Origin: a virus
Lineage: Duplodnaviria > Caudoviricetes
IMG/VR virus record: IMGVR_UViG_3300048998_000149
Coordinates: 36,510 to 100,509 of that record
Reading direction: 5' to 3' (one strand)
DNA length: 64,000 nt
This document shows positions 4,006 through 64,000 of this stretch, piece after piece. Position 1 is the first letter of the stretch. The number at the start of each line of letters is the position of its first letter. A program made the translations under genes and the position numbers. The notes under the pieces were generated by a model, which did no database searches, was not told where the DNA came from, and saw only the letters and a program-made list of their open reading frames with translations.

Positions 4006-4116
4006 GCCGACGCGCCTCGACGTGCGGCGTGCGCACAAGCCCTGTCACGCAAACTGCCGCGACCAGTGCTCCGACAGCTGCGACGACGACTGCTGCGACA
4101 ACGGGCCGAGCGCGGC

Positions 4117-4536
4117 ATGACGGACGAGGAACGCGCCAGCGTCGAGGGGCGCAAGAGCACCGAGCGGCTGTTCCTGGCTCGCGGCCCGTCCGAGGCCACC
4201 GTGACGGCTACCTATGAACGCGACGCGAACCGCATCCGATTGGACATCACGGCCGACGCCGATACTGCCTACGTCAACGCGTCTGTCACCAGAGGCAACG
4301 GCCTATGCCGGGACGCGCTCTGGCCCGCCGCAGGGCTTCTCGCCGACTGGCCCCCGAAGGGGGTAGCCCCAGTCGGCGGTTCGGCGGTGATCTACGACTA
4401 CTTGGCGCCGCTGAACATGCCCAGCGAGTATCTGGTGACCTTCTACCAGGGGCCTCGGCGGATCCTGAAGTTTGCCCGTACCGCCGCGGTCACCCCGCGC
4501 GATGACCGGCACTGGTTGAAGCGCCCAGCGACGTGA
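4117..4536 (+). CDS. Stand-alone paralog of an internal domain of tail protein 31265-32911
   Basis: YDYLAPLNMPSEY and DDRHWLKRPA match YDYVAPLNVTSQY and DTRHWLKNPA in the tail protein. Confidence 0.65.
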   Translation: MTDEERASVEGRKSTERLFLARGPSEATVTATYERDANRIRLDITADADTAYVNASVTRGNGLCRDALWPAAGLLADWPPKGVAPVGGSAVIYDYLAPLNMPSEYLVTFYQGPRRILKFARTAAVTPRDDRHWLKRPAT

Positions 4537-4633
4537 AGCTTCACCGCCGCTGCAAGCCAGGTACCTGCGAAGGCTGTGATCTTCGCCGAGACGCACTCAA
4601 AACGCCCACGCCGAAACCACGCCGAGGTACCCG

Positions 4634-4786
4634 ATGAAGCTCCGCGAGGCACTTCTCCTGGCCCTGCTCACCCGCAACCCGCTGGGTTTGGCCGTGCTGG
4701 ACCGCGAAGTCGCCAAGACGGTCGACCAGCGGATCGCGGCCAACAACACAGCTCTAGCCGACGCCCTCGCACGCCAGAAGGGCTGA
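4634..4786 (+). CDS. 50-aa protein ending in a tape-measure C-terminus-like peptide (not in ORF track)
   Basis: MKLREALLLALLTRNP...NNTALADALARQKG; GAGG RBS; paralogous to next gene. Confidence 0.7.
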   Translation: MKLREALLLALLTRNPLGLAVLDREVAKTVDQRIAANNTALADALARQKG

Positions 4787-4791
4787 GGCGG

Positions 4792-5013
4792 ATGAAGCTC
4801 CGCGTAGCCCTCATCAAGGCACTGTTCAGCCGCAACCCTGTGGCCAAGTTTGAGCGCTGGCAGACCGAACAGTTCCGCCAGCAGGTCAACCGCGCCGCAG
4901 GTGTCGACGTGCACATCCACCTGGACGGCCAGGAACTGTCGACGGCGTTCAAGGCGTACACCGACAAGAGCCTCGAGGCCTTCGCGGCATCCATCGCACG
5001 CCAAAGGCGGTGA
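4792..5013 (+). CDS. 73-aa protein ending in a tape-measure C-terminus-like peptide
   Basis: MKLRVALIKALFSRNP...VHIHLDGQEL...SLEAFAASIARQRR; GAGG RBS. Confidence 0.7.
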   Translation: MKLRVALIKALFSRNPVAKFERWQTEQFRQQVNRAAGVDVHIHLDGQELSTAFKAYTDKSLEAFAASIARQRR

Positions 5014-6397: not shown

Positions 6398-6418
6398 CCG
6401 CCACACGCACCCGAACGT

Positions 6419-6496
6419 GGTGAGCGATGCCGAAGCGGACGAGGCCCAAGGTTGTGAACCTTGGTTTAGCGGGTTCGAGTCCCGTCGCTCACCCCA
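6419..6496 (+). tRNA. tRNA-His (GTG)
   Basis: Acceptor GTGAGCG/CGCTCAC with G-1 and C73, encoded CCA, anticodon arm CAAGG-TTGTGAA-CCTTG, GGTTCGAGTCC T-arm. Confidence 0.92.
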
Positions 6497-6524
6497 ACCA
6501 CGCCGACCACCGAAGGGAGCCACC

Positions 6525-7112
6525 ATGGCCACCAACACCCCTGACACCCCCAAGGACGACGCAGCGGCCAACGGTGCTCCCGCAGGGCAGCCCGAAGCCG
6601 CCACGCCCGCAGCGGCCCCCACAGCGTCGAAGCGGCGTGGCCGGCCGAACATGCGCATGAACTCGAAAACCAGCCCCGCTGCGATCGAACGCCTCGAACG
6701 CGACCTAGCCAACGTCAACCTGCGCCGCTCCGGTGTCGCCTGGGATGCCATCGCCACCCAGCTCGGCTACGCCGACGCAGGCCACGCCCATCGCCGCTTC
6801 ATGGCCGTCATGGCCGCATACCCGCGTGAGGACGTCGACCAGGCCCGCCAGGTCGAACTAGACCGCCTCGACCAAATCCAGCACGCCATCTGGGCGCAGT
6901 GTTTGGACACCGAAAGCAAAAATCAGCATTGGGCGATCGACCGCATGCTGAAACTCTCTGACCAGCGCGCCAGGTTGCTCGGCTTGAACGCCCCTGTCAG
7001 GCAGGAGATCTCCGTGCTGTCCGAGTCGGTTGTCGATAAGGCGATCCGCGAGTTGCAGGCACAGATGCAGGCTCAGGCCAGCGAGGCTGGCGTAGAACTA
7101 CCCGCCGAGTAG
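6525..7112 (+). CDS. HTH protein, probable terminase small subunit
   Basis: LRRSG..WDAIATQLGY HTH, ELDRLD, RARLLGLNAP motif typical of actinophage TerS-like proteins; GGGAG RBS. Confidence 0.6.
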   Translation: MATNTPDTPKDDAAANGAPAGQPEAATPAAAPTASKRRGRPNMRMNSKTSPAAIERLERDLANVNLRRSGVAWDAIATQLGYADAGHAHRRFMAVMAAYPREDVDQARQVELDRLDQIQHAIWAQCLDTESKNQHWAIDRMLKLSDQRARLLGLNAPVRQEISVLSESVVDKAIRELQAQMQAQASEAGVELPAE

Positions 7113-12440: not shown

Positions 12441-13847
12441 ATGCCTGATCCGCAGGTGGTTGAGGCTCCTCTGGCGAAGCTGGAGCTTCTGGCGCGGTTG
12501 CAGGCGCAGCAGGCGGAGTTGCAGCGGCGGATCGCCAAGATGGCGCCACCGAGGCCCCGTGCGTGGCATGAGCAGGCTCGGACGGCGCAGTTGCCTCCGC
12601 CGGGTGATTGGGCGATCTGGTTGGTGTTGGCGGGCCGTGGGTTTGGGAAGACGAGGCTGGCGGCTGAGTGGATCGCCGAGCAGGCGGCTACGCATCCGGA
12701 TACGGAGTGGGCGATTGTGGCCCCGACGTGGAGGGATTGCCGCAAGACGTGCATTGAGGGGCCGTCGGGTTTGGTGCGGGCGTTGCTGCCTGGCGAGCTT
12801 GAGTCGATGAACGCGAGTGATTTGCAGATCCGGTTGAGCAACGGCTCCCGGATCTACGGGTACAGCGCGGATCGGCCTGACCGGCTGCGTGGCGCGAACT
12901 TGTCGGGCGCCTGGGTGGATGAGGCGGCGGCGATGGTGCACGCCGACGAGTTGTTCGGCGAGGCGTTGATGCCGGCGCTGCGGATCGGCGAAAACCCCAG
13001 GGTGTTGATCACGACGACGCCTCGGCCGGTGAAGTTGCTGCGCGACTTGTTGGCGCGCGACGACGGCACGGTGGCGGTCGTTCGGGGTTCGACGTGGGAC
13101 AACGCGAAGAACTTGTCGCGGACGGCGCTAGCGGAGTTGCGGGCCCGGTATGAGGGCACCCGACTGGGCCGCCAGGAGCTCGAGGGTGAGCTGCTGGAGG
13201 ACATTGAGGGTGCGCTGTGGTCGCGGGAGATTCTCGACGGCACCAGGGTTGATCGGGCTCCGACGTTGGCGCGGATCGTGGTGGGTGTCGACCCCGCTGT
13301 GACGTCCGGCGAGAAGTCCGACTACACGGGCATTGTGGTTGCCGGCCGGTCCCCCGATGGGCATCTGTACATCCTTGAGGACGCCACGATGAAGGGGACG
13401 CCGCACAACTGCATGTCGGCTGCTGTGTCGGCCTATCACCGTTGGCATGCCGACAGGATTGTCGGCGAGGTCAACAACGGTGGGGACTACATCGGCACCG
13501 TGTTGAAGACGATCGACGCGAACGCCGCGTACAGCACGGTTCGCGCGACCCGAGGGAAAGTTGTTCGGGCCGAACCGATTTCGGCGCTGTGGGAGCAGGG
13601 TCGCGGTCATATTGTCGGCGCGCTGCCGACGCTGGAAGACCAGATGTGCTCCTTCACGCCGGACACGAAAGAGTCGCCGGACAACATGGACGCCATGGTG
13701 TGGGCGGCCCACGAGTTGAATGTGGGCACGTCGGCGCTGGTGTACCTGTCGGCGATCTCCACGATGTGCGAGAAGTGCGAGATGCCCAACTCGAAGAAGT
13801 CGACGGCGTGTCGTGGTTGTGGCACTGCTCTGTCGTCGGCGGCTTAG
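12441..13847 (+). CDS. terL: Terminase large subunit with C-terminal zinc ribbon
   Basis: GRGFGKT Walker A, WVDEAA Walker B, TTTPRP, RQELEGE, GVDPA nuclease, SPD.MDA; CEKC...CRGC. Confidence 0.95.
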   Translation: MPDPQVVEAPLAKLELLARLQAQQAELQRRIAKMAPPRPRAWHEQARTAQLPPPGDWAIWLVLAGRGFGKTRLAAEWIAEQAATHPDTEWAIVAPTWRDCRKTCIEGPSGLVRALLPGELESMNASDLQIRLSNGSRIYGYSADRPDRLRGANLSGAWVDEAAAMVHADELFGEALMPALRIGENPRVLITTTPRPVKLLRDLLARDDGTVAVVRGSTWDNAKNLSRTALAELRARYEGTRLGRQELEGELLEDIEGALWSREILDGTRVDRAPTLARIVVGVDPAVTSGEKSDYTGIVVAGRSPDGHLYILEDATMKGTPHNCMSAAVSAYHRWHADRIVGEVNNGGDYIGTVLKTIDANAAYSTVRATRGKVVRAEPISALWEQGRGHIVGALPTLEDQMCSFTPDTKESPDNMDAMVWAAHELNVGTSALVYLSAISTMCEKCEMPNSKKSTACRGCGTALSSAA

Positions 13848-14800: not shown

Positions 14801-16723
14801 GTGTCGCGTCGTCGCCGCCGCCCCGCCCAGCAGGACAGGCCGCAGAGCAACGGGCCGGATGTTCGGCAGATTATCCAGGAGGAGCTGACCAAAGCCCTCG
14901 CGTTGCCCGCCGGCGCCACCGCCACAAACGTGACCGCCGGCTACCTTCAGCAGTTGCAGCAGGCCGGTAGCCCCCGCATCTCTGGGACGGCCGCGCTGAG
15001 CCGCGACCCGTACAACAACGTCTCCTTCGGGCCGGGCGTGCCGCTGTTCCCAGCGCCGATCGACCCGCTACTGCCCTCCGGTAGGCCAGCGCCGCGCCGC
15101 TCGGAATTCGACGTCTCATGGAACCTGCAAACCACCACCACCCGCAACGTGCCGTGGTCGGTGCTGCGGGACGCCGCCGACCAGGTGTCGGTGATGCGGT
15201 CCTGCATCGAAGTCAACAAGTCAGCGATCACCGGCCTGCAATGGTCGTTCGAGATTGACTCCGGACGGGCGCAGCACCTCGCTAAGCGCGCCGGAACCTC
15301 CAGCCATGCGGTCACGTCGGACTTGCAAGACAAATACGCCGACGACATGGACAGGCTGCACCAGTGGTGGCAGACGCCGGACCGCATCAACAACTGGACG
15401 TTCTCTGAGTGGCTCGGCGCGCTCCTCGAGGACCAGCTCGTGTTGGATGCGGTCGCGCTGTACCCGCACATGCAGATGAACGGCGACCTGCACTCGCTGG
15501 AGCTGCTGGACGCGACCACCATCAAGCCGCTGCTGGACCACCGTGGGGCCACCCCACAGCCGCCGTATGCCGCGTTCCAGCAGATCCTGTGGGGTTTCCC
15601 GCGCGGGGAGTACGCGCAGTCCCCTCCGGAGCAGGTCGACGCTTCCTTCGTCTCCGCGATCTACGGCCGCACCACAGGTATTGAGGCCGGCACCGACGCG
15701 CTGATCTACAAAGTGCGGAACCGGCGCACCCGCAGCCCCTACGGGTTCTCCAACGTCGAACAGGCGTTGGTGGATGTTGACCTGTGGTTGAAGCGGTTCG
15801 ACTGGTTGCGCTCCGAATACACCGCCGGTGTCACCCCAGAAATGATCGTCGGGGTTGACGCGAACATGACCCCCGAGCAGTTGAGAAGCTACGAGGCCGT
15901 CTTCAACGACGACCTGTCCGGCAGGACAGCCGAGAGGCACCGCGCCCGCTTCCTGCCGGCCGGGTTCACCACCAGCTACCCGCAGTCGCACGACGCGAAG
16001 TTCAACTCCGATTTCGACCTGCACCTGATCCGGCTGATCTGCGCGGCGTTCGATGTGCTGCCCACCAGCATCGGATTTAGCCCGAACCACGGCATGGGCG
16101 GCATGGGCGGCCAAGGCCACCAGCAGGGCGAACAGGACAGCCAGCTGCAACGCGGCACCAAACCCACCGCCACATGGATCACAGACCTGGTCAACAAGGT
16201 TTGCGTCCACTACCTGGGGATGCCGCCCGAGGTGACGTTCCGCTTCCACGGGCTCGACCAAGAGGACGAGCAGAAGGAAGCGACCCTCCTCGGCGGCTAC
16301 GTCAACGGCGGCCTGAAAACCCTCAACGAAGGCCGGGACCAGCTCAGCCTGCCCCGCTACGACTTCGAAGAGGCCAACCAGCCGTTCCTGTCCACCCCCA
16401 CCGGGCCTGCGTTTCTGAACGTTGAGGTGCAGCCCGTTGGGATGCCAGGGAACTTGCCGTCGGCGGCACAAAACCAGCCGCAAAGCCAGCCCGCCAAGGA
16501 ACCGGCGTCCACGCCGGAACCGCAGGGCGAGCAGGCGCAGGACGCCAAGCGCACCGAGCAGAAAGCGTTCATGACGTTCCTGCGGAAACGCGCTGGCGGG
16601 GCGTGGCGGGACTTCACCTTCACCGCCCACCCGCAGTCGGTCGCGGAAGCCGCAAACCGGCTGGCCGCCGCCGGCGATGTGGACGCCGTCAAGGCGCTGT
16701 TCGCCATGAACGAGGGGGATTGA
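14801..16723 (+). CDS. Portal protein
   Basis: Follows terL; LEDQLVLDA..LY, LDATTIKPL, PYGFS.VE, ICAAFDV.P.SIG, TLNEGR. Confidence 0.9.
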   Translation: MSRRRRRPAQQDRPQSNGPDVRQIIQEELTKALALPAGATATNVTAGYLQQLQQAGSPRISGTAALSRDPYNNVSFGPGVPLFPAPIDPLLPSGRPAPRRSEFDVSWNLQTTTTRNVPWSVLRDAADQVSVMRSCIEVNKSAITGLQWSFEIDSGRAQHLAKRAGTSSHAVTSDLQDKYADDMDRLHQWWQTPDRINNWTFSEWLGALLEDQLVLDAVALYPHMQMNGDLHSLELLDATTIKPLLDHRGATPQPPYAAFQQILWGFPRGEYAQSPPEQVDASFVSAIYGRTTGIEAGTDALIYKVRNRRTRSPYGFSNVEQALVDVDLWLKRFDWLRSEYTAGVTPEMIVGVDANMTPEQLRSYEAVFNDDLSGRTAERHRARFLPAGFTTSYPQSHDAKFNSDFDLHLIRLICAAFDVLPTSIGFSPNHGMGGMGGQGHQQGEQDSQLQRGTKPTATWITDLVNKVCVHYLGMPPEVTFRFHGLDQEDEQKEATLLGGYVNGGLKTLNEGRDQLSLPRYDFEEANQPFLSTPTGPAFLNVEVQPVGMPGNLPSAAQNQPQSQPAKEPASTPEPQGEQAQDAKRTEQKAFMTFLRKRAGGAWRDFTFTAHPQSVAEAANRLAAAGDVDAVKALFAMNEGD

Positions 16724-24740: not shown

Positions 24741-24950
24741 GTGGCAGGAAAGCAGTACGAGGCCATTCGGGTGTGGAGACGAACCGACCCGCGAACGGGC
24801 GCCGACACCAACTATGTGCCGGGTGACCCGTATACGGCGCCTGTCGAGCCAAACATGGTCAGTCCGGAAGGCCCTGACGGTAAAGGGCCTGTGATCGCCG
24901 AGAAGTCCACCCCCGCCATCTCTGGCGACTCCAGCAGCAAGGAGAAGTGA
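24741..24950 (+). CDS. Small hypothetical protein
   Basis: GTG start after AGGAAGG; coupled to tail tube gene. Confidence 0.5.
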   Translation: MAGKQYEAIRVWRRTDPRTGADTNYVPGDPYTAPVEPNMVSPEGPDGKGPVIAEKSTPAISGDSSSKEK

Positions 24951-25732
24951 CCATGGCTATTGACCTGAACCCGGTGACCATCGCATACCCGGGCTACAAG
25001 ACTCAGTGGGGCATCGAGGGACTGTTGTTCAGCGCTCAGGGTAACGACCTGGAGCACAGCCGTAAGGCCGACAAGGTTGACGGTTCGGGGTTCGGCACTC
25101 GCGTCCGCAACTCGCTGCCGGGCATGCAGGAAGGCTCCTTGAAGATCAAGGGCCTGGCCGCCATGGAAAAGGGCGCGCTGAACTGGCAGATCAACCAGTG
25201 GTTCGGCCGCAAGTCGGCTGTGAACGCCTGGTTCGCGCTGGAGGGCCTGACCACGGGGTCGCCGATCACCATGCAGCCCTCTTCGATCATTGACGCGTCG
25301 ATCACCGCGAAGCTGAAGGACGCCATCGACTTCTCCATGGAGCTGGATGCGCGGGGCGCCTACGACGACGGCTTCATTCTGCTGTCCCCGCAGAACCTGC
25401 TGACCGGCGCGTCCGGCACGGGCCCGCAGGATCTGAACGCCCTCTTCGGGGGTGCCACCACTTCCGGTGCGACCGCGCAGCTGCACGTGTGGGCGTTTGA
25501 CGGCGGCACCACCCCAGCGGTGACTGTGACCGTCCAGCACAGCCCAGATGGCACCTCCTGGACCCCGCTGATGACCTTCGCGGCGCAGTCGACGGTGGGT
25601 TCGCAGCGGATCGTGCTGCCGTCCACCACCTCGGTGAACGCGTTTGTGCAGGCCACTTGGACTGTGTCGGGTGCGCCGACTGACGTGCAGGTGCTGCTCG
25701 GGTTCTCCCGCGGCATCAACCTCAACATCTGA
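24947..25732 (+). CDS. Major tail (tube) protein with C-terminal beta-sandwich
   Basis: D.SGFG..R..LPG..EGSL motif; directly precedes chaperone/TMP; strong codon bias. Confidence 0.78.
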   Translation: MTMAIDLNPVTIAYPGYKTQWGIEGLLFSAQGNDLEHSRKADKVDGSGFGTRVRNSLPGMQEGSLKIKGLAAMEKGALNWQINQWFGRKSAVNAWFALEGLTTGSPITMQPSSIIDASITAKLKDAIDFSMELDARGAYDDGFILLSPQNLLTGASGTGPQDLNALFGGATTSGATAQLHVWAFDGGTTPAVTVTVQHSPDGTSWTPLMTFAAQSTVGSQRIVLPSTTSVNAFVQATWTVSGAPTDVQVLLGFSRGINLNI

Positions 25733-26012: not shown

Positions 26013-26456
26013 ATGTCCGACGCCGACGATGACCTGGACTTTGAGCTTGTCACGAGCGCCAAGCAGCTGGCCGCTGCCCCCCCGTTGCGTCACGAGAAGG
26101 TGACCGTAGCGGACTGGAAGACCACCTCCGGTAAAGCGGCCAGGTTCCTGGTGTGGGAGCTGACCGCCGCAGTCTATGCCGAGTTCTTGGAGTCGGGTCG
26201 GATCTACAAGGACGGGGCGCTCAAGCGCTACGACGTGAAGGACGAGGATGTCCGCCTCCTGGCGTTCACCGTGTGCGACCAGCACGGGAACCGCCTGTGG
26301 AGCACCGTCGAGGCAGCTAAAACCCAGCTTGGGGGTCTGGGTAAGGCCAGTTTGAACCTGCTGTTGAACGCGGCCAACGAGGTTAACAGCGCGAAGCCCA
26401 CGGACACTGAGGGAAACTCCGGCGGGACCCCGAGCGACTCTTCGCCTACGACCTAG
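26013..26456 (+). CDS. Tail assembly chaperone (G)
   Basis: Position before TMP; in-frame slippery G GGA AAC near the 3' end. Confidence 0.8.
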   Translation: MSDADDDLDFELVTSAKQLAAAPPLRHEKVTVADWKTTSGKAARFLVWELTAAVYAEFLESGRIYKDGALKRYDVKDEDVRLLAFTVCDQHGNRLWSTVEAAKTQLGGLGKASLNLLLNAANEVNSAKPTDTEGNSGGTPSDSSPTT

Positions 26457-26704: not shown

Positions 26705-29700
26705 GTGGCTGAACTGCATATCTCTATCACCGGCGATTGTATCGGCGCCACCTCCGCGATTGACAACACCAAGTCGGCTATTGATTCGCTCAACGGCAAG
26801 ACCGCAGGTGTTGCTGTCGCGTTGAGCGGTTCCGACAGCGCTATCAGCGACCTGGGCAAGGTAGGAGCGGCCAGGCAGGCTGCGGGCGGCACCGTCACGC
26901 TCGGCGTGGACGGCTCGGGCATCAGCGCGGGGCGCGACGCCCTGTCCGGCCTGCGGTCGGATGTGCGGGCGGCTGGCCGGGAACTCGACACTATTAGCGG
27001 TAGCCGGGCGTTGGGCTTCTCCGACAACGGCTCGATCAGGCAGATGACCTCCGATCTGTCTGGGGCGAGCCGCGAGATGCGGGGCATCGGCGCCTCGGCG
27101 CAGGCGTTGGGGCGGGTCGATTCGGCTGCGCAGAGCGTCTCCCGGTCCACGTCGGGGATGGAAGCCAACATGTCGTCCGCTAACCGGACGGCGAGTGCCC
27201 TCAACGCCACTATCAGTGGTGGGGGCGATGCGGCGGCGTCCTCTACGGCTCAGATGCGGCAGTTGTCGATGGCGATGGCTGGTGGCGGCTCCGGCAGTGC
27301 ACTCGCCGAATCCGCCGCCGACGGCAGCACCGCGGTGCGCACCCTCGAGGCCGATATGTCCTCGGCCAGCCGGTCGGCCGGCAAGTTATCCGACCAAGCC
27401 ATCGCGGTCGGCCGAGCCCTCAACACGGGGGGGCTGCCTTCGGGGTTCAACACCTTCGGCGGTAGCGACGCCAGCGTCGGTATTCCCGGCACGGGACACG
27501 GTCCGCCGCGTGGGCCAGGGGGCGGCGGGGGTAGTGGTGGCGGCGGCGCCTTCGGCGGCGGCAGTGAGGGTGGAGGCGAGGGAAGCCTCAGGGGGCTCGG
27601 CGGCCCCGGACTGATTGCGCTGGCGGGCGGGGCTGTCGGCGAGATGGTCGGCGCTGGCGCTGGCCTGGTCGCGGTGTCGGAGACCATCAAGAACGTCCCC
27701 GGGCTGGCGTATGCCGCTAACCAGGCGATGAACCAGTTCGGCAAAGGGGTCGCTGAGACCGGCAAGAGCGCCATGCTTGAGGGGGTGCCTGCGCTTCACC
27801 AGTTGGGGGATGCGCTGGGCGGTCTTGGGCGTGAGGTGGGCACGATCGGCGCCCAGCAGATGGGCACTGTGCTGAACGGTGCGACTCAGCTGGCTGGTGG
27901 CGCTACGACGGCGCTGAAGTCGCTGGAGCCTGCGATCGGCCCGGCTGTGACTGGTGCGATCAATCTGGGTAACGCGCTTTTGGCGGGTGTTGCTAACCCT
28001 GCGGTGACGAATGCGATCAAGGGCTTGGGCAACTCGTTGTCCGGCGCCGGAGTCGCCGACGTTATCAGCGACGCCACTACAGGGCTGCTTACTGCCGGTT
28101 CCATTGCGAGCAAGGTTGCTGTTGATGTTGTCAGTAGCGTCGCGGGAGCACTGGGGGCCGGTAGCCCCGACGCGCCTACGGTGACCACGGACCTCACTGG
28201 CGGTCTCGGCGGCTTCATGGCCGGTAAGGCTCTGGGCGGCCCCAAGATGGGGATTGCGGGCGCCCTTCTCGGTACCGCAGGCATGGCCGCCGCGCAATTC
28301 GAGCAAGCGCATGGGATGAACGCCGCGGTTACCCCCACCATCGTGGGCGAGGGAATCGGCGCTGGGCTTGGCGGCTTGATGTTTGGCCCTGCCGGCGCCT
28401 TTGTTGGTGGCGCTGTCGGCGGCACCGTCGGGTCCACCTTGTCGGAGTCTGCACCCTCGAACACCGGGTGGGGCAGCGCCATGAACACGGGCGGCTCCCT
28501 CCTCAACTTGGCTGGTGCTGCGATCTCTGACATCGCCAACGCTCCGGGCGCGATGATGAACTACGGGTCCGCAAGCCCAAAGAGTTTCGCGGATCGGGCG
28601 AGTTCCGCCTTCGGCGACCTGCACGCAAAGGGCGACGACCTCAACAATCAGATAGCCAACGCCACTGGTATCTACACCGGTGGCGCCGTGCCAGGAGGTG
28701 CGGCGGGCGGTACTGGCGGCTCCACTGCCGCCCAGTACGACGCGTCGGGACATTCCGCCCAGGCCCCAATGGGCTGGAACATGGACCAGCAGGGCAACCT
28801 GTCGCCAGCTACGACGCGGATGCAGGACTACAACGGGGCGCCTCCGCCCCCTCCGTCGTCGCCTGCGGCGACTGGCGGGTTCGGTCAGGGGGCACCTACG
28901 GCGGCGACGGCGCAGGCCGTGCAGCAGCTGAGTGCCGCATTGCCAGCCGCGAATCAGAACTTGCAGCAGACTGGGGCGGCTTCGGCTACCGCCGCATCAG
29001 GGTTGTCGAGGGTTACGCCGAGTTTCACCAGTGCCACGTCGGCGGCGCAAGGGTTGCAGCAGAGTTCTTCTGCCCTGTCGGCGCCGATGCAACAGGTGCA
29101 GCAGCATGCGGCTGCCGCGACTAATGCCGCGCAGGGTTTGCAGCAGCAGGCTCCGCAGACGGCGGCGGCTGTGCAGCAGATGGCCCCGGCGGTGAATCAG
29201 GCGATGACTCAGGCCGGTTCCGCCGTGCAGTCTGGCGGCCAGGCTTTGGGCACGCAGATCCCCGCGTCGATGGGTTCGGGGATTTCGGCGGGCCAGTCGC
29301 AGGCTTGTGATGCGTCGGCCCAGATGGCAGCGCAGGCCGCGAAGTGTGCCGCCGCGGCGTTGCAGGCGGCTTCCCCGTCGAAGGTGTTCGTCGGGTTGGG
29401 TGTGGGCATCGGCGACGGTTTGGCGATCGGTGTGCGGGACAGCACTCCTGGCGCGGTGAGCGCGGTGAAGGACGCGATGAACAGTGTCGTGTCGTCCGGC
29501 GCGACAGGTTTGCAGGCGGCGTCCCCGTCGAAGACGTTCACCCAACTCGGTCAAGACGCCATGAACAGCGTCGCTGGTGGGGTCAGGGGCGGCGACGGTG
29601 CCTCGCTGCCGCAGTACGGCGGCGTCAACTCTTACGGTGGCCAGCCTCCGCGCACCGGCGGCATTGCACATCGGGTCGACCTGGCCGCCGGTCATGACGA

Positions 29701-31183
29701 TCTGTCGGAGCGCCAGCAGCGGGCCAACACGCTGTCCGACATGAACGCCGCGAACATGCCGCAGCAGCGGATGGCGGATGCCCAGCGGCAGGCTGAGAAG
29801 CAGAAGGCCGATCAGGACAAGGCGGACAGCCCGGAGCAGAAGCGCGCCGATGCGTTCCGCAAGAATCTGGAGAAGCTGGGCTATTCGAAGGACACGATCG
29901 ACCGGCTCAGCGGGAACCAGCAGCGGCACGATGCGAATAAGGACAGGCTGGACGCCGCAAGGAGAATCCGCCAGCAGGACGCGCAGGACCGAGCGTTCGG
30001 CAACCAGAATATTGACCCTAAAACGGGTCTGCCTATGACCCACGACCAGCGTGCACTGCAGCTCCAGAACCGGGCTGGGCAAACCCAGAAGGATGCACTG
30101 GCCGCCGCTCGCCAGGGCATTTCGCTGTCCGAGTACCGGCAGAACCAGCAGAACGCCGCACTGGGCGCCGGGCCGATGAACTCTAGGCCGGGTACTCCAC
30201 CCAACCCCTTCGGGCAGACGCTGGCAGGCACTGGCGGTGGCGCCACTCCCCCCAAGCCCCAGGGTTCGGCCGCCGTGGAGGGTGCCAAAAAGTGGAACGA
30301 GCACGTGGCCGACGGGAAGCGCGCTGCGGCTGACGCCAAGGGACAAGGCAACCAGATCGGTCAGGGCTTGATGCAGGGCCAGGCCGATGGGATCAAGCAG
30401 GGCCAGGGCCAGGTGAACGACGCGGCCAACAAGGCCGCCGACGGGACCACCAACACGACCAAGAAGAAGCACGGCATCCATTCTCCGTCGAGGGAGTACC
30501 ACGACATCGGCAACAACCTGATGCGCGGTATGGCTGAGGGCGTTCATCACGGTCGCCGACATGTGGACCGTGAGTTCGACGACATGGATCGCGATATGCA
30601 CGATCGGGACGACAAGAGAGGCGACAGGTGGTGGCGGGGCCTCGGCATCCCCAGCGTCGTCCAGAGTAGCGGCGGCGGTGGCGGAGGAGGCGGGGGCGGC
30701 GGGGCTTCTGGCGGCGGTGGCGGAGGAGGCGGGGGCGGCGGCGGGGGCGCCCTTGGGATTGGCGCGTCCCAAGCCGAGGCTGTAGCCGCTTTGACTGGGG
30801 CCTTGGGCTCCGGCGTGCAGGCCGCTTCCGATGGGGTTCTGCCGATCGCCTCCAGCCACGGGTTGATGGTCGGCTATGCGTGGGCGCGCAGCGTCGAAAC
30901 CGGCGCCGATTCGGTGCTGAAGAAGGCTGACTTCATGGCGTCGGCGCTGCCAGCGGTTGGAAGCGCACTGGCGAAGACGGCGCTGGGTACGGCAGGGCTG
31001 TTGGGGCCGGCTGGGTCTGGCGCGTCGATAGACAAGACACCCGCGGTGACCCTGACCGCGTCGGCGCCAGTGGTGCACAACCATTTCTATGTCGACGGCA
31101 AAGAGATCCAGGGCATCACCCAGCAGGTGGTGGACAGCAACTTAGACGCGCTCGCCGACTCGATCGGCCGGCAACGCGGCTAA
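26705..31183 (+). CDS. Tape measure protein (Gly/Ala-rich, 1492 aa)
   Basis: Longest ORF, follows G/GT; repeated ASPSK.F / IHSPSR..G....GL..G motifs; C-terminal ..VDGKEI. Confidence 0.85.
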   Translation: MAELHISITGDCIGATSAIDNTKSAIDSLNGKTAGVAVALSGSDSAISDLGKVGAARQAAGGTVTLGVDGSGISAGRDALSGLRSDVRAAGRELDTISGSRALGFSDNGSIRQMTSDLSGASREMRGIGASAQALGRVDSAAQSVSRSTSGMEANMSSANRTASALNATISGGGDAAASSTAQMRQLSMAMAGGGSGSALAESAADGSTAVRTLEADMSSASRSAGKLSDQAIAVGRALNTGGLPSGFNTFGGSDASVGIPGTGHGPPRGPGGGGGSGGGGAFGGGSEGGGEGSLRGLGGPGLIALAGGAVGEMVGAGAGLVAVSETIKNVPGLAYAANQAMNQFGKGVAETGKSAMLEGVPALHQLGDALGGLGREVGTIGAQQMGTVLNGATQLAGGATTALKSLEPAIGPAVTGAINLGNALLAGVANPAVTNAIKGLGNSLSGAGVADVISDATTGLLTAGSIASKVAVDVVSSVAGALGAGSPDAPTVTTDLTGGLGGFMAGKALGGPKMGIAGALLGTAGMAAAQFEQAHGMNAAVTPTIVGEGIGAGLGGLMFGPAGAFVGGAVGGTVGSTLSESAPSNTGWGSAMNTGGSLLNLAGAAISDIANAPGAMMNYGSASPKSFADRASSAFGDLHAKGDDLNNQIANATGIYTGGAVPGGAAGGTGGSTAAQYDASGHSAQAPMGWNMDQQGNLSPATTRMQDYNGAPPPPPSSPAATGGFGQGAPTAATAQAVQQLSAALPAANQNLQQTGAASATAASGLSRVTPSFTSATSAAQGLQQSSSALSAPMQQVQQHAAAATNAAQGLQQQAPQTAAAVQQMAPAVNQAMTQAGSAVQSGGQALGTQIPASMGSGISAGQSQACDASAQMAAQAAKCAAAALQAASPSKVFVGLGVGIGDGLAIGVRDSTPGAVSAVKDAMNSVVSSGATGLQAASPSKTFTQLGQDAMNSVAGGVRGGDGASLPQYGGVNSYGGQPPRTGGIAHRVDLAAGHDDLSERQQRANTLSDMNAANMPQQRMADAQRQAEKQKADQDKADSPEQKRADAFRKNLEKLGYSKDTIDRLSGNQQRHDANKDRLDAARRIRQQDAQDRAFGNQNIDPKTGLPMTHDQRALQLQNRAGQTQKDALAAARQGISLSEYRQNQQNAALGAGPMNSRPGTPPNPFGQTLAGTGGGATPPKPQGSAAVEGAKKWNEHVADGKRAAADAKGQGNQIGQGLMQGQADGIKQGQGQVNDAANKAADGTTNTTKKKHGIHSPSREYHDIGNNLMRGMAEGVHHGRRHVDREFDDMDRDMHDRDDKRGDRWWRGLGIPSVVQSSGGGGGGGGGGGASGGGGGGGGGGGGGALGIGASQAEAVAALTGALGSGVQAASDGVLPIASSHGLMVGYAWARSVETGADSVLKKADFMASALPAVGSALAKTALGTAGLLGPAGSGASIDKTPAVTLTASAPVVHNHFYVDGKEIQGITQQVVDSNLDALADSIGRQRG

Positions 31184-31264: not shown

Positions 31265-32911
31265 GTGGCGCTCACCGTCGTGACTTTGCGGCCGAACTCC
31301 ACCTCCCAGCTTGGGCTGGGAACGGTCACCGGCGCTGCGACCGCCGATGCGGCCCTCGCCGATAACGTCGACACCTCCTATGTGCAGATTTCCAGCCGTG
31401 TCCGGCTGGATTCGCAAGTCACTCGGGTTGGGTTCCCAACCCCAGCGATTCCCGCCGGCGCGAAGGTGTATTCGGTTGGTTTGAGGCGCCGCATCCAGAC
31501 GGTGGTCACCGGCGCGGATATCCCGGTATGCAACCACTGGCTTCGATCGATCACCGGCGCCATCCTGGTGGCGGGGCAGGCTCAGGCCATCCAGAAGTCG
31601 TTTTTCAGTTCAACTAACCCCGTCTCGCCGACCACGGCGACGTGGGTGGAGGAGAACCTCGGCACCTTCACGTCCGGCCCGGGTGGGCAGGTGTGGGATC
31701 CGACGACAAACCTTGTTGGGCTTACCTACGACCTGGGTCGAGGTGACGACTCGGTGACTTCGGTGCTGCAGGTCAGCGCCGTCTATTTGGACGTCACCTA
31801 CCAGTCGCTTTCGTCGGTCACCGTCACCGGCCCCACCGGCACCGTCACCTCGACGCGGCCCACAGTCAAATGGACGTATTCCAGCCCGAACAGCCAGCCG
31901 CAGCAGTCCTACCAGGTGGCCATCTACACGTCGGCGCAGGTCGCTTCGCTCGGGTTCACACCGTTTGTGACCACACCGCTCCAGACGTCGGGGGTGGTAT
32001 TGGGCGAGGATTTGCAGTGGACTCTGACCAGCGACATCACCGACGGCGCCTATTCGGCGTATGTGCAGTCCACGTCGCGGTGGTCTGGTTCGGGGAGCTT
32101 CGCCACCGCCGTCTCCTCTGCCACCTGGACCCGGGCGGCTGCTCCGGCGAACCCGCCCCCAGCTGCGGTGTTGTCGGCGGCGGTGTTCGACTCGGCCAAC
32201 AATCGGGTCGCCTTAACGTTTGCTCCCGGCGGGTCGAGCCCCGCAACCACGGCGTTCACCGTCCAGTCTTCCCAGAACGGTGGGGTGACTTTTACGAGCA
32301 TCCCCAGCCTGACCTATGTGCCCGCGACCGGCCTGACCCCCATAACCAAATACGACTATGTGGCGCCGTTGAACGTCACGTCGCAATACCGGGTGTTGGC
32401 CTACAGCGGAACGGTGTTGGTGGCCGCCACCGCCCCGTCGAATGTGCTGTCGGCGACCCCTGCGGATACTCGGCATTGGTTGAAGAACCCGGCTAATCCG
32501 CTGCAGAACACGCCGTTGCCGGTGGCTGCTCCGAAGACGAGTGACGTCGGCATCAAGATCACCAAACGCCGGATGATGGGCACGTTCCAACTCTTGGGTG
32601 GCCCAGGGTCAGAAGTGTTGCCGTTCGTTGTGAACGGTCCAACCTACGGCGATGAATACGCAATCGAATTGATCTTCCTTTGGGACGATCCGGTCGATCT
32701 CTGGCCAGCGGTCGACCAGTTGGACCGCACCGGCGGCACCTTGCTGTTCCAAAAACCGAACGGCGACCAACTGTGGGTGGCCTTGGGTCCCGGCTCAAGC
32801 GGGCAGGAAACAGAAGAGACCTACAACGCCCCCGCTGGCGATCCGACCAAGATCCAGTGGCGTCGCCGAAAGCTGATCCTCACGGAGACGGTTCCGCCAA
32901 GCTTCTACTAG
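31265..32911 (+). CDS. Minor tail protein (Dit position) with FN3/Ig-like domains
   Basis: Immediately after TMP; Thr/Ser-rich beta domains; YDY.APLN and WLK.P motifs. Confidence 0.7.
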   Translation: MALTVVTLRPNSTSQLGLGTVTGAATADAALADNVDTSYVQISSRVRLDSQVTRVGFPTPAIPAGAKVYSVGLRRRIQTVVTGADIPVCNHWLRSITGAILVAGQAQAIQKSFFSSTNPVSPTTATWVEENLGTFTSGPGGQVWDPTTNLVGLTYDLGRGDDSVTSVLQVSAVYLDVTYQSLSSVTVTGPTGTVTSTRPTVKWTYSSPNSQPQQSYQVAIYTSAQVASLGFTPFVTTPLQTSGVVLGEDLQWTLTSDITDGAYSAYVQSTSRWSGSGSFATAVSSATWTRAAAPANPPPAAVLSAAVFDSANNRVALTFAPGGSSPATTAFTVQSSQNGGVTFTSIPSLTYVPATGLTPITKYDYVAPLNVTSQYRVLAYSGTVLVAATAPSNVLSATPADTRHWLKNPANPLQNTPLPVAAPKTSDVGIKITKRRMMGTFQLLGGPGSEVLPFVVNGPTYGDEYAIELIFLWDDPVDLWPAVDQLDRTGGTLLFQKPNGDQLWVALGPGSSGQETEETYNAPAGDPTKIQWRRRKLILTETVPPSFY

Positions 32912-32923
32912 AGGGGGGCCTGG

Positions 32924-33316
32924 ATGCAGGGCCGTTCCAGTCAATTTGATGCCACGATCCAAAAGCCGCACACCGCGGTCCCTCGCGCTGACGTAATCCA
33001 AGACGGCAAGGTTGTGGATCAACTCGCTGTTCACGCCGGGTCGGTGTCGGCGGATCGCACCGCCGCGCAGATGCGGACCTTCGAGGTGGAGGTCAGCGCC
33101 TCGGAGGGCAGCCCCCTCATTCCTGTGGGCATGACCTCCGAGCTGGCGCCTTTCGGGACCCGAATGCAGTTGTGGCGGGGTGTGCGAATCAGCAACGTCC
33201 AAACCCAGGCGGTGCTCTATAACGCCGCGAACCCGTGGGTCGTATCTGGCACTTCAACTGGGGTGCTTAACAGCGTGAAGGTCGATGGTTCAGGCAACCT
33301 CACTTTGGGGCCTTGA
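32924..33316 (+). CDS. N-terminal half of baseplate hub (DUF5047-like)
   Basis: GSVSADRTA..RT, LAPFGT...LWRGV. Confidence 0.65.
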   Translation: MQGRSSQFDATIQKPHTAVPRADVIQDGKVVDQLAVHAGSVSADRTAAQMRTFEVEVSASEGSPLIPVGMTSELAPFGTRMQLWRGVRISNVQTQAVLYNAANPWVVSGTSTGVLNSVKVDGSGNLTLGP

Positions 33317-33341
33317 GCCCGTGACTTTGGAAGGCTGACGT

Positions 33342-33797
33342 ATGGCAACCTGGGTCAATACATTCGCCAAGGGCCGGATCATTGAAAAATGTTCGTTGCC
33401 GCTCGGCACCGACAATATTCTGATCATCCCGTTGCAGAGCACTGGTTTGCCGTCGGACACCACACTGCGAAACGCGGCGAACTTGGCGGCAATCTTCACG
33501 GCGGGCGGGCTGGAGGCAACGTTTACTAACTATGCCCGTAAGGTACTGGCCGGCACCGATATCACGATCGCCAACAATCTCGGCACATTCCAGGCGACGG
33601 CAACGGTCAACGCCGCGCAAAGCTGGGCCTCGGCGGGCGGGGCGGTAAACAACACCATCGCTAAAATCGTGGTTGCTTATCGCCCGACGTCAAGCTCGCC
33701 CGATTCTAGCTGCATGGTATTAGCCACCCAGGACTACAGCGGCTCCACCACTGGCGGGGCATTCACGGTCACCGTCGGCGTTCTAACCGCGGCGTGA
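33342..33797 (+). CDS. Minor tail/structural protein
   Basis: AKGRII, EATFTNYARK.L motif. Confidence 0.6.
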   Translation: MATWVNTFAKGRIIEKCSLPLGTDNILIIPLQSTGLPSDTTLRNAANLAAIFTAGGLEATFTNYARKVLAGTDITIANNLGTFQATATVNAAQSWASAGGAVNNTIAKIVVAYRPTSSSPDSSCMVLATQDYSGSTTGGAFTVTVGVLTAA

Positions 33798-33846
33798 TAG
33801 CAATGACTCCGGCCAGGGCTGGCACTACCGTGGATGGGGATACCTG

Positions 33847-34299
33847 ATGACCGCATACAGTATTTGCACCATAGTTAACTCGGACAGTGGTGAATCCGTT
33901 GCGATTCAAGCCAACGCCTACGAACTGAAGATCGCTCGAGTCGAGGCATACAACAACCTCATTCCAACCAATAGCACGTTCCTAACGGCCGCAGTCTCCC
34001 GCTACTCAGGATCGACAGTGTCCGGCGGTTCCGTATTCACTCCGACAGCGCTGCGCGGGGGCGCGCCGGCAGCGTCAGCATCGTGCAGGTTCGGGCCCGT
34101 GTCTGTCTCGGGGACCAGTGCGCTAATTGCTAAAACAACCGTGGCGGCGGCCCAAACGGGCGTAGTTGCACCTCCGTTCGACTTAACCATCCCAGTCGGG
34201 TCCGCGCTCGCTGTGAAGACGACCAACAATGCCACAGGCACTTTTAACGCGCTTGTGACCATCTACTTCGAGGAGTTGCGGCTCGCATGGCACTACTAG
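33847..34299 (+). CDS. Minor tail/structural protein
   Basis: Beta-rich, ends IYFEE like IWEE of 38376-38885. Confidence 0.55.
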   Translation: MTAYSICTIVNSDSGESVAIQANAYELKIARVEAYNNLIPTNSTFLTAAVSRYSGSTVSGGSVFTPTALRGGAPAASASCRFGPVSVSGTSALIAKTTVAAAQTGVVAPPFDLTIPVGSALAVKTTNNATGTFNALVTIYFEELRLAWHY

Positions 34300-34468
34300 A
34301 CGGGCGCGGCAGGCCGTGATCCTCAGCTAGGCACGTAGTGGTCAGCCGACCCGAAAGACCGCCCGCATTGGCGACAAGTGCGCACTCAATCACGTGCCTC
34401 TATTAACACGGGAGTTAGCCATCAAAGCGACGTTAACTGTCCCGTTCATCGGAATGGCGCAGTAGGCC

Positions 34469-36550: not shown

Positions 36551-36560
36551 GGAGGGGGCT

Positions 36561-36872
36561 ATGGCGTCTAGCTCGGCCATCGACCGGCTGGCCCGAAGCG
36601 TCAAACGCGGCGACCAGCCCGCCTGGGTGCCGCGCGCACCGCAAGTGACGATGTACCAAGGCTCCGTCACCGCCGTGGACACCTTCAAAGGCATCGTCGG
36701 GTTCCAGTTCAACGACCCATCCGGACTGGTCCTGCCGGGGGTGCGGTATTTGCAGTCATACTCCGCCGCCAATCCGCCCGCAGCGGGAGACGTGGTGTGG
36801 GCGCAGCACTTCGGCACCGACATCGTCATCCTCGGGCAGCACGTGGTGCCCGCCAACCTGATCATCCCCTGA
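36561..36872 (+). CDS. Minor tail protein (OB-fold-like)
   Basis: G.VTAV, YLQSY..P.AGD.VW, VILG. Confidence 0.65.
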   Translation: MASSSAIDRLARSVKRGDQPAWVPRAPQVTMYQGSVTAVDTFKGIVGFQFNDPSGLVLPGVRYLQSYSAANPPAAGDVVWAQHFGTDIVILGQHVVPANLIIP

Positions 36873-63501: not shown

Positions 63502-63649
63502 CGGTGGCCACCCACTCACCGTTGCGCCAGACCCAGTCCTGAACGCGCCCGTCCCACCACCCATATCGCTTACGTAGCGGGTCCAGCCACGTCGTGATGT
63601 GATGGGGCGGGTCTGGCCCGTCGAACAACTCGTCGAACCCGTCGCTCAC
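63494..63649 (-). CDS. Small Trp-rich hypothetical protein
   Basis: GGAG RBS; coupled ORF. Confidence 0.5.
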   Translation of the reverse strand: MSDGFDELFDGPDPPHHITTWLDPLRKRYGWWDGRVQDWVWRNGEWVATDD

Positions 63650-63873
63650 CGCTTCTCCTCTCCCCGCCGCGCACGGCAAGCAGCCGGGGTGTGCACGGTC
63701 GTGTGCATCAGGAACGGATCATCCCGATCCGGGGACACCTCGTAGAGCATGCGGGTGCCCGTCACCGCGATCGCGACAACGGGGGTACCGCAGTTTTCGC
63801 ACGGCTCGACGCTGTCTAGAACTGTGCCGAGGCGGTCGGCTGGGATCCGGGGCTCGGCGGGGTCGTCACTCAC
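63646..63873 (-). CDS. Small zinc-binding hypothetical protein
   Basis: CENCG...HT...C; GTGA overlap. Confidence 0.55.
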   Translation of the reverse strand: MSDDPAEPRIPADRLGTVLDSVEPCENCGTPVVAIAVTGTRMLYEVSPDRDDPFLMHTTVHTPAACRARRGEEKR

Positions 63874-64000
63874 GGGTGCACCGGGTCGCTGGGCTCGAAC
63901 CGGACCTCGACGTGGCCGTTAGAGAGGGCCGAATGGTCATCGACGCTCGCCCAGTTGACGCTCTGCATGTAGTTGCTGACATCGAGCGGGGACAGCCAGC

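What the first reader, a model, noticed from the sequence alone, without database searches (positions are those of the whole stretch)
4634..5013. Two mini-proteins that mimic the extreme C-terminus of the phage's own tape measure protein
Seen: the TMP ends VHNHFYVDGKEIQGITQQVVDSNLDALADSIGRQRG*. Gene 4792-5013 ends VHIHLDGQELSTAFKAYTDKSLEAFAASIARQRR*. Gene 4634-4786, which the ORF track misses, ends LDREVAKTVDQRIAANNTALADALARQKG*. All three stop at the same aligned position. The two small genes share a private N-terminus (MKLR.AL..AL..RNP) absent from the TMP, each has an RBS, and they lie 26 kb from the TMP end. Known: the siphophage TMP C-terminus docks into the tail-tip (Dit/Tal) complex to start tail assembly, and prophage factors that block tail assembly exist. 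Inference: these are diverged TMP-tip decoys that occupy the tail-tip socket of competing related phages, or that titrate a host sensor of TMP. Two sequence variants would fit two targets.
Basis: partly seen in the sequence, partly recalled or inferred. Interest (0 to 1): 0.82.

Follow-up and report, generated by a model that had tools for sequence, protein, structure and literature searches.

The report
Mini-genes copying the tape-measure tip
An uncultured 100-kb phage of actinobacteria carries two tiny neighbouring genes whose ends copy the last ~35 residues of its own tail tape measure protein, the part that plugs into the tail tip; the copy is real, but what the mini-proteins do (decoy, blocker or helper) is untested.

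Summary
Observation confirmed. Genes 4634-4786 (50 aa, g1) and 4792-5013 (73 aa, g2) have coding-type GC3 (0.82, 0.84), GAGG ribosome sites and a shared N-terminal helix. Both end co-terminally in a diverged copy of the last 31-36 residues of the phage's own tape measure protein (TMP, 26705-31183).

In an end-anchored comparison with all 1877 other ORFs of the genome they rank first and second (z about 6-8; controls 4.1 or less). A profile built only from foreign TMP tips picks g2 as the best non-TMP hit (E 0.005). g1 fails that profile test and rests on the end-anchored test and its paralogy to g2.

This TMP tip is a conserved module in 26 foreign TMPs. Both mini-proteins are closest to the phage's own TMP. 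The next gene upstream is a free-standing copy of a module of the protein encoded just after the TMP.

The cluster lies in a variable region upstream of the terS-like gene and was not found in six related records. Only one g2 homologue exists among 1.84 billion representative proteins.

The decoy reading is plausible but untested. I favour an accessory soluble TMP-tip mimic. This scan has flagged similar stand-alone TMP-tip copies on other DNA.

The parts
4634..4786 (+). g1, a 50-aa mini-protein: N-terminal helix motif (residues 1-16) joined directly to a TMP-tip-like module (residues about 19-50) that ends ALADALARQKG
   Evidence: Translation; GC3 0.82; GAGG at 4624-4627; end-anchored rank 1-2 of 1877; BLASTP vs TMP tail E 3e-5
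4792..5013 (+). g2, a 73-aa mini-protein: the same N-terminal helix motif, a private linker helix (residues 16-35), then a TMP-tip-like module (residues 38-73: beta-turn with D-G, then a 24-residue terminal helix ending SIARQRR)
   Evidence: Translation; GC3 0.84; BLASTP E 2e-7; foreign-TMP profile E 0.005; AF2 model pLDDT 73 with H2-13, H16-35, short strands at 43-48, H49-72; one homologue P0023 at 65% identity. The TGA stop overlaps the GTG of the next ORF at 5010
4634..4681 (+). Shared private N-terminal motif MKLR.AL..AL..RNP in g1. The g2 copy is at 4792-4839, and the first 13 nt of the two genes are identical
   Evidence: no counterpart in the TMP or elsewhere in the genome
31073..31183 (+). 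C-terminal module of the TMP (last 36 codons plus stop): beta-turn V.V.VDG, then a helix ending LADSIGRQRG. This is the template that g1 and g2 resemble
   Evidence: conserved in 18 database TMPs and 8 IMG/VR TMPs and two MAG TMPs, alignment; AF2 secondary structure is strands at 70-75 and helix 76-99 of the last 100 residues
26705..31183 (+). Tape measure protein, 1492 aa
   Evidence: PHROG TMP families, E down to 1.6e-21; match to the 80alpha TMP gp57 (PDB 6v8i), E 7e-11
4066..4536 (+). Adjacent upstream gene: a free-standing copy of an FN3-like module of the 548-aa protein encoded just after the TMP (context for the cluster)
32180..32494 (+). The module (residues 306-410) of the DTP-position protein that the free-standing gene at 4066-4536 copies

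Best explanation
Shown: g1 and g2 are real, tandemly duplicated accessory genes. Each joins a private 16-residue N-terminal helix to a diverged copy of the last 31-36 residues of the phage's own TMP. That copied part is a beta-turn plus a 24-residue terminal helix.

Inferred from solved tails: in this TMP family that module is the segment that sits as a trimer in the tail-tip (DTP/hub) lumen.

Inferred mechanism: the mini-proteins are soluble mimics of the TMP tip and compete for whatever binds it. I think the most likely role is a protective decoy. Made with or just before the late genes, they would soak up a host- or prophage-encoded factor that recognises the TMP tip, so that the real TMP can dock and tails can form. 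Such a factor could be a Tab-like tail-assembly blocker or an Avs18-like TMP sensor.

The neighbouring free-standing copy of a distal-tail-protein module may belong to the same set of stand-alone copies of tail-tip surfaces.
For: - Homology and co-terminal alignment.
- Same predicted secondary structure in register with the C-terminus.
- The family's conserved positions are kept. g2 keeps D-G, S and Q; g1 keeps Q and the terminal G. The helix's hydrophobic positions are kept in both.
- Both tails are closest to the phage's own TMP among 27 TMP tails. This is expected for a decoy that must imitate its own tip.
- The cluster lies in a variable region. Relatives whose hub proteins are 58-73% identical lack it, including G004, which has the terS-like gene and 7.4 kb upstream of it. 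It is therefore not a core assembly gene.
- The genes are co-oriented and tightly packed with the downstream exonuclease and terS-like genes.
- The adjacent gene copies a DTP module.
- Literature: Tab blocks tail assembly through the TMP, and its antidote is encoded in the late operon next to the terminase genes (PMC10884400). A STAND family that senses TMPs is reported (bioRxiv 10.64898/2026.01.04.697583). The TMP's last ~40 residues dock in the hub (PMC13033339, PMC10721106).
Against: - There is no binding, expression or phenotype data of any kind.
- No TMP-tip-directed defence is known in the presumed hosts (Actinomycetota).
- g1 alone fails the foreign-TMP profile test (E 0.5-1.9).
- g2's last residue is R where the family has an invariant G.
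- The only homologue, P0023, ends differently (..AKDIA). It is either cut by its 1257-bp contig or lacks the RQRG end.
- The role of the private N-terminal helix is unexplained.
- The family is extremely rare, with only two members found.
Confidence: 0.3

Rival explanations
1. Inter-phage interference. The mini-proteins occupy the TMP socket of the tail-tip complex of co-infecting or induced related phages, so that rivals release tailless heads. They might instead exclude superinfection at DNA entry.
For: The homology evidence is the same. Tail-assembly blocking by phage-borne genes is established (PMC10884400, PMC11364771). The hub proteins of relatives are 58-73% identical, so a mimic could cross-react. 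The genes sit in an accessory, variable location.
Against: Both tails are most similar to the phage's own TMP, so the phage would poison itself unless an antidote exists, and none is evident. There is no Cys lipobox and no hydrophobic run longer than about 8 residues, so an envelope-located exclusion protein is unlikely. There is no PADLOC match.
Confidence: 0.2
2. Part of the phage's own tail assembly or virion. They could be a placeholder or plug that holds the hub socket until the TMP-chaperone complex arrives, or a minor tip component that co-assembles with the TMP tip helices.
For: They are closest to the phage's own TMP. They are co-oriented and packed with genes leading into the packaging and structural module. 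In lambda a small separate protein, gpI, supports the TMP helix bundle in the tip lumen (PMC10721106).
Against: They were not found in six related records that have very similar hub proteins and TMP tips. They lie 22 kb from the tail genes, outside the conserved tail module. The phage already has a tail assembly chaperone at 26013-26456.
Confidence: 0.15
3. An old partial duplication of the TMP 3' end that was captured behind a new N-terminus. It is now either neutral or serves a function unrelated to the tail tip, and the similarity is only a historical trace.
For: Identity to the TMP tail is only 32-38% and the DNA similarity is eroded. Only one homologue exists, and its C-terminus may differ. 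In g2 and P0023 the best-conserved stretch is the private linker plus the beta-turn, not the terminal helix. Phage genomes are mosaic.
Against: Two paralogues both keep the exact co-terminal register, the helix's hydrophobic pattern and the R-Q motif. Both have a clean coding signature and ribosome sites. A neutral fragment would not be expected to stay an open, well-expressed-looking gene twice.
Confidence: 0.25
4. Chance or convergent similarity of short amphipathic helices in a GC-rich genome.
For: The modules are short. In the all-vs-all test the TMP-g1 score (51) barely exceeds the best junk pair (50). g2 also shows weak matches to repeat units of a giant adhesin-like protein around the V.V.LDG motif.
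Against: g1 and g2 are ranks 1 and 2 of 1877 at four window lengths. The junk pairs are R/P-rich non-coding frames. Six control records reach z of 4.1 at most. An independent foreign-TMP profile finds g2 first. The two hits are adjacent paralogues, next to another copy of a tail-tip module.
Confidence: 0.07

Closest known systems
C-terminal hub-embedded segment of siphophage tape measure proteins (mycobacteriophage Douge TMP residues 1658-1699, PMC13033339; lambda gpH residues 818-842, PMC10721106)
   Same: It is the extreme C-terminal ~25-42 residues, a terminal helix that forms a trimer in the tail-tip lumen. The window's TMP tip and the g1 and g2 modules have the same length and a predicted terminal helix.
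   Different: g1 and g2 are free-standing 50- and 73-aa proteins with a private N-terminus, encoded 22-26 kb from the TMP. No sequence similarity to Douge or lambda was tested or claimed. The docking role of this family's tip is inferred by analogy.
Tab / anti-Tab of Pseudomonas phage JBD26 (PMC10884400)
   Same: They are small phage accessory genes beside the terminase genes. Their target is the TMP and their outcome is control of tail assembly. The antidote is made from the late operon.
   Different: No homology was detected or testable here. tab and atab lie between terS and terL, whereas g1 and g2 lie 1.4 kb upstream of the terS-like gene. As read here, neither Tab nor anti-Tab is reported to be a copy of a TMP segment.
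Tai / Ati tail-assembly inhibition and counter-defence (PMC11364771)
   Same: These are accessory genes of mobile elements that interfere with, or rescue, tail-tip assembly.
   Different: Tai escape mutations map to the central fibre J or the needle, not the TMP. There is no sequence relation, and PADLOC gives no hit.
Free-standing FN3/Ig-like module genes of phages (neighbour gene 4066-4536)
   Same: It is a stand-alone copy of a piece of a tail-tip structural protein in the same accessory cluster.
   Different: It is a different fold and a different parent gene. It is closer to a relative's DTP module (43%) than to the phage's own (33%), whereas g1 and g2 are closest to the phage's own TMP.

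Membership tests
C-terminal tip module of this TMP family (uncultured actinophage group, 27 TMPs) | Significant match to a profile built from TMP C-termini | tested here: inconclusive
   The HMM was built from 18 foreign TMP tails and run against 1878 ORFs. g2 has E 0.005 and is the best non-TMP hit. g1 has E 0.5-1.9. g2 meets the test and g1 does not.
C-terminal tip module of this TMP family (uncultured actinophage group, 27 TMPs) | The module lies at the extreme C-terminus, in the same register as the TMP | tested here: met
   End-anchored ungapped scores rank g1 and g2 first and second of 1877 ORFs (z about 6-8). Related records used as controls reach z of 4.1 at most.
C-terminal tip module of this TMP family (uncultured actinophage group, 27 TMPs) | Invariant or near-invariant residues: D-G in the beta-turn, S, Q and the terminal G | tested here: inconclusive
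   Alignments. g2 keeps D, G, S and Q but ends in R instead of G. g1 keeps D, Q and the terminal G but lacks the turn G and has A for S.
C-terminal tip module of this TMP family (uncultured actinophage group, 27 TMPs) | A short beta-turn followed by a ~24-residue terminal helix | tested here: met
   AF2 on the TMP tail gives strands at 70-75 and helix 76-99 of 100, at low confidence (pLDDT 50). AF2 on g2 gives strands at 43-48 and helix 49-72 of 73 (pLDDT 73). g1 was not modelled.
C-terminal tip module of this TMP family (uncultured actinophage group, 27 TMPs) | Docks in the DTP/hub lumen | not testable with these tools
The role is inferred only by analogy with Douge and lambda.
Tab / anti-Tab (JBD26) | Sequence homology to Tab or anti-Tab | not tested
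Pfam, PHROGs, NCBIfam and PADLOC give no relevant hit.
Tab / anti-Tab (JBD26) | [quoted passage not shown] | tested here: not met
   g1 and g2 lie upstream of the terS-like gene (6417-7112). terL is at 12441-13847.
Envelope superinfection-exclusion proteins acting on the TMP (Ltp, HK97 gp15 type) | Signal peptide with lipobox, or a transmembrane segment | tested here: not met
   By inspection: no cysteine, and hydrophobic runs of 8 residues or fewer, interrupted by K, R, N or P. No predictor was run.
Tail assembly chaperone | Match to chaperone families; position just upstream of the TMP | tested here: not met
   The phage's chaperone is 26013-26456 (phrog_344, E 5e-11). g1 and g2 have no such match and lie 22 kb away.

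The most novel reading that the evidence does not exclude
Stand-alone copies of the TMP's hub-docking tip are a functional class of phage mini-proteins. They work by molecular mimicry of a virion assembly interface. They would act either as decoys that shield the real tip from TMP-directed host or prophage immunity, or as blockers of rival tail assembly. Here such copies are duplicated into two variants and clustered with a stand-alone copy of a distal-tail-protein module.
Probability: 0.45. Interest if true: 0.8.

Novelty: new variant of a known kind. Interest (0 to 1): 0.6.

Why it matters
Phage accessory genes that block or rescue tail assembly (Tab/anti-Tab, Tai/Ati) and immune sensors of TMPs have only recently been described. 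In the papers I read, none is reported to work by copying the TMP's own docking peptide.

If these mini-proteins bind the partner of the TMP tip, they would give a simple rule that can be read from sequence: look for a small gene that is co-terminal with the TMP. That rule could find assembly-interface mimics in any siphophage. The mini-proteins would also be a ready-made probe for the poorly understood first step of tail assembly.

The case here is clean. There are two paralogues, a well-defined conserved TMP tip family and a neighbouring second tail-module copy. The drawback is that the phage is uncultured, so tests need cloned genes.

Tried and rejected
**Homologue searches**
- Word-based search of g2 in 5.8 billion proteins found only itself.
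- Full HMMER search of 1.84 billion representatives found one real homologue, P0023, plus repeat-protein noise.
- A search for short proteins resembling the TMP tip found only P0022, a 112-aa C-terminal TMP fragment and not a mini-gene.
- IMG/VR scans with P0023 and with the FN3-like neighbour found nothing.
- A JGI metagenome scan with the g2+P0023 alignment found nothing.
- A JGI scan with the TMP alignment found only short contigs.
- Relatives of the exonuclease gene (L003-L008) lack the mini-genes.
- GenBank phages have no DNA match, no match to g2 and no match to the TMP tip.
- Of 401 Mycobacteriales genomes searched, only the MAG G006 has this TMP tip.

**Family and structure searches**
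- Pfam, PHROGs, NCBIfam and PADLOC gave nothing meaningful for g1 or g2. The weak hits (phrog_324 E 0.008, a RiPP family E 0.035, a T3SS family E 0.13) are treated as chance.
- The protein atlas gave nothing usable.
- Foldseek of the g2 model against the PDB gave no match.
- Sequence searches of the tail-tip proteins against the PDB did not identify the hub.

**Other checks**
- The promoter and terminator scan found nothing near g1.
- I tested whether the N-terminal helix derives from the TMP's ALAKTALG helix; an ungapped scan gives no support.
- G004 ORF 66758-67018 looked positionally interesting but is not a homologue.

- The look-up of encoding contigs, so the P0023 contig could not be read.
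- The look-up of sequencing runs, so there are no expression or variant data.
- Complex prediction. The alignments prepared for it are A2-A5.

Full report
**Setting.** The window is bases 36510-100509 of a 100,509-base IMG/VR virus record (CheckV completeness 86%) with about 65% G+C. It is a siphophage. The terS-like gene is at 6417-7112, terL at 12441-13847, the portal gene at 14801-16723, the major tail protein at 24947-25732 and the tail assembly chaperone at 26013-26456. The TMP is at 26705-31183, followed by a conserved tail-tip block. The only relatives found are uncultured: 18 TMPs in the large protein database, 8 IMG/VR loci, and two MAG contigs labelled Mycobacterium sp. and Pseudonocardia sp.. 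No GenBank phage has this TMP tip.

- Both small ORFs have the codon-position G+C pattern of real genes: GC3 0.82 and 0.84, GC2 0.41. The alternative long reading of the g2 frame from 4576 does not (GC3 0.51).
- Each has a GAGG before its ATG.
- The g2 stop overlaps the start of the next ORF, which in turn overlaps the exonuclease gene, so the genes are packed like an operon.
- g1 and g2 share their first 16 residues (BLASTP E 2e-6), and the first 13 nucleotides are identical. They are tandem paralogues.
- The N-terminal motif has no counterpart in the TMP or elsewhere in the genome.

**Is the similarity to the TMP tail more than chance?**
- Pairwise E-values are 2e-7 for g2 and 3e-5 for g1 against the last 100 TMP residues.
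- Against all 1878 six-frame ORFs of the genome, the TMP tail finds g2 (E 0.002) and g1 (E 0.14) as its two best non-self hits.
- A profile built only from 18 foreign TMP tails, which is independent of this phage, finds g2 as the best non-TMP ORF (E 0.005). g1 reaches only E 0.5-1.9.
- The alignment is co-terminal, so I also scored ORF ends ungapped against the TMP end. g1 and g2 are ranks 1 and 2 of 1877 at window lengths 11, 20, 27 and 34 (z about 6-8; next best below 4). No other 11-mer among 151,254 reaches g1's score.
- In an all-against-all version (1.49 million pairs), TMP-g2 is the best pair outside the contig-end repeat (62 vs 49). TMP-g1 (51) only just exceeds a pair of R/P-rich junk frames (50).
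- Six related records used as negative controls reach z of 4.1 at most.

I conclude that homology is well supported for g2. For g1 it is good only when its paralogy to g2 and its adjacency are taken into account.

**What the copied piece is.** The last ~45 residues of the TMP form a conserved module in all 27 TMPs of this group. It has a hydrophobic strand ending in D-G, then a helix ending LADSI.RQ.G, with D, G and Q invariant and S and the final G nearly invariant. AlphaFold2 on the monomer has low confidence (pLDDT 50) but gives a beta-turn and a 24-residue helix that stops one residue before the end. The g2 model (pLDDT 73) has the same beta-turn and 24-residue terminal helix in the same register, preceded by two private helices.

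In solved siphophage tails this region is the part held in the tip. In mycobacteriophage Douge the last 42 TMP residues form a trimer in the DTP-hub lumen with a large TMP-hub interface (PMC13033339). In lambda the C-terminal gpH helix forms a three-helix bundle resting on gpI (PMC10721106). Assigning the same role to this family's tip is inference by analogy. The tip proteins themselves have no detectable sequence match to solved structures.

**Evolutionary pattern.**
- Both mini-protein tails score clearly higher against the phage's own TMP than against any of the 26 foreign tails: g1 51 vs 33 at most, g2 62 vs 46 at most.
- They are nonetheless more diverged from the own TMP (about 32-38% identity) than the TMP tips of distant relatives are (about 50-60%). 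There is no sign of recent gene conversion at the DNA level.
- This fits a lineage-specific duplication followed by fast but constrained change. The hydrophobic helix positions, the R-Q motif and (in g2) the D-G turn are retained.
- The only homologue in 1.84 billion representatives is P0023 (79 aa, 65% identical to g2 over 55 residues), from a 1257-base contig. Its conservation is strongest in the private linker and the beta-turn. Its end (..AKDIA) is either cut by the contig end or truly different.

**Context.**
- The gene directly upstream (4066-4536) is a free-standing copy of residues 306-410 of the 548-aa protein encoded immediately after the TMP (E 2e-11). So three consecutive small genes are stand-alone copies of pieces of the TMP/distal-tail pair.
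- The tip proteins are strongly conserved in relatives: the 548-aa protein at 58-73%, the 130-aa protein at 48-70%, and residues 252-693 of the 693-aa protein at 55-68%. The TMP as a whole is only 28-43% identical.
- None of the six related records has a mini-gene. That includes G004, which carries the terS-like gene and 7.4 kb upstream of it but no exonuclease, orf85, g1, g2 or FN3 copy.
- The cluster is therefore in a variable accessory region and is not part of the core assembly set. All these records are fragments, so absence is 'not found', not proven.

**Mechanism.** What is shown is a real, duplicated, co-terminal copy of the TMP tip on small soluble-looking proteins. There is no cysteine, no long hydrophobic run and no defence-family match. 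What is inferred is that they compete for a partner of the TMP tip.

I rank the possible roles as follows:
- **Protective decoy against a TMP-tip-directed blocker or sensor (0.30).** The mimics resemble the phage's own tip best and sit with genes leading into the late module. TMP-directed blockers with late-operon antidotes (Tab/anti-Tab, PMC10884400) and TMP-sensing STAND proteins (bioRxiv 10.64898/2026.01.04.697583) exist.
- **A duplicate that now has an unrelated function or none (0.25).**
- **An own-assembly helper or minor virion part (0.15).** It is disfavoured because the genes were not found in relatives.
- **Chance (0.07).**

**Novelty.** No paper found in my searches describes a stand-alone TMP-tip copy. 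Notes from this scan report similar mini-genes in several unrelated phages. Those are unchecked leads, not evidence, but they suggest the pattern recurs. I class this as a new variant within known kinds: mosaic duplication of structural modules, and accessory genes acting on tail assembly. There is a substantial chance (about 0.45) that it represents a functional class of assembly-interface mimics.

Noticed in passing
window 63644-64000 (genome 100153-100509) and genome 32-400 (outside the window): The end of the contig repeats its start at 92% identity over 369 nt. This could be an imperfect terminal repeat or a concatemer junction assembled from a variant. IMG/VR calls the record 'linear', but it may be close to a full genome length.
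   Followed up: partly
window 4066-4536 versus relatives (e.g. L018:6063-6341): The free-standing FN3-like gene is closer to the DTP module of a related phage (G001, 43%) than to the phage's own DTP module (33%). This hints at acquisition by recombination rather than a duplication within this genome. g1 and g2 show the opposite pattern.
   Followed up: partly
window 4534-4545: A perfect 12-bp palindrome, GTGAAGCTTCAC, overlaps the stop codon of the FN3-like gene. It opens the 97-nt non-coding gap before g1. It may be an operator or a processing site.
   Followed up: no
window 31265-36872 and related loci: The tail-tip proteins (548, 130, 151 and 103 aa, and the C-terminal 440 aa of the 693-aa protein) are 50-73% identical across relatives whose TMPs are only 28-43% identical overall. 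The N-terminal ~250 residues and the S/T-rich linker of the 693-aa protein are replaced in several relatives.
   Followed up: partly
window 32924-33316 and 34469-36550: The 130-aa product and the C-terminal half of the 693-aa product match consecutive parts (288-379 and 393-647) of one PHROG tail-protein profile (phrog_1887). The hub protein therefore seems to be split, or a domain is duplicated, with two small genes in between.
   Followed up: no
genome 33053-33535 (about 3 kb before the window start): A tyrosine recombinase (PF00589, E 8e-30) lies in mid-genome, so the phage may be temperate or may resolve dimers. This matters for any prophage-expressed exclusion model.
   Followed up: partly
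P0024 (2456 aa, database protein): g2 residues 14-63 weakly match repeat units of a giant adhesin-like protein around a V.V.LDG strand-turn motif (E 3e-8 summed over the protein, 30% identity). This is probably a generic beta-turn resemblance.
   Followed up: partly
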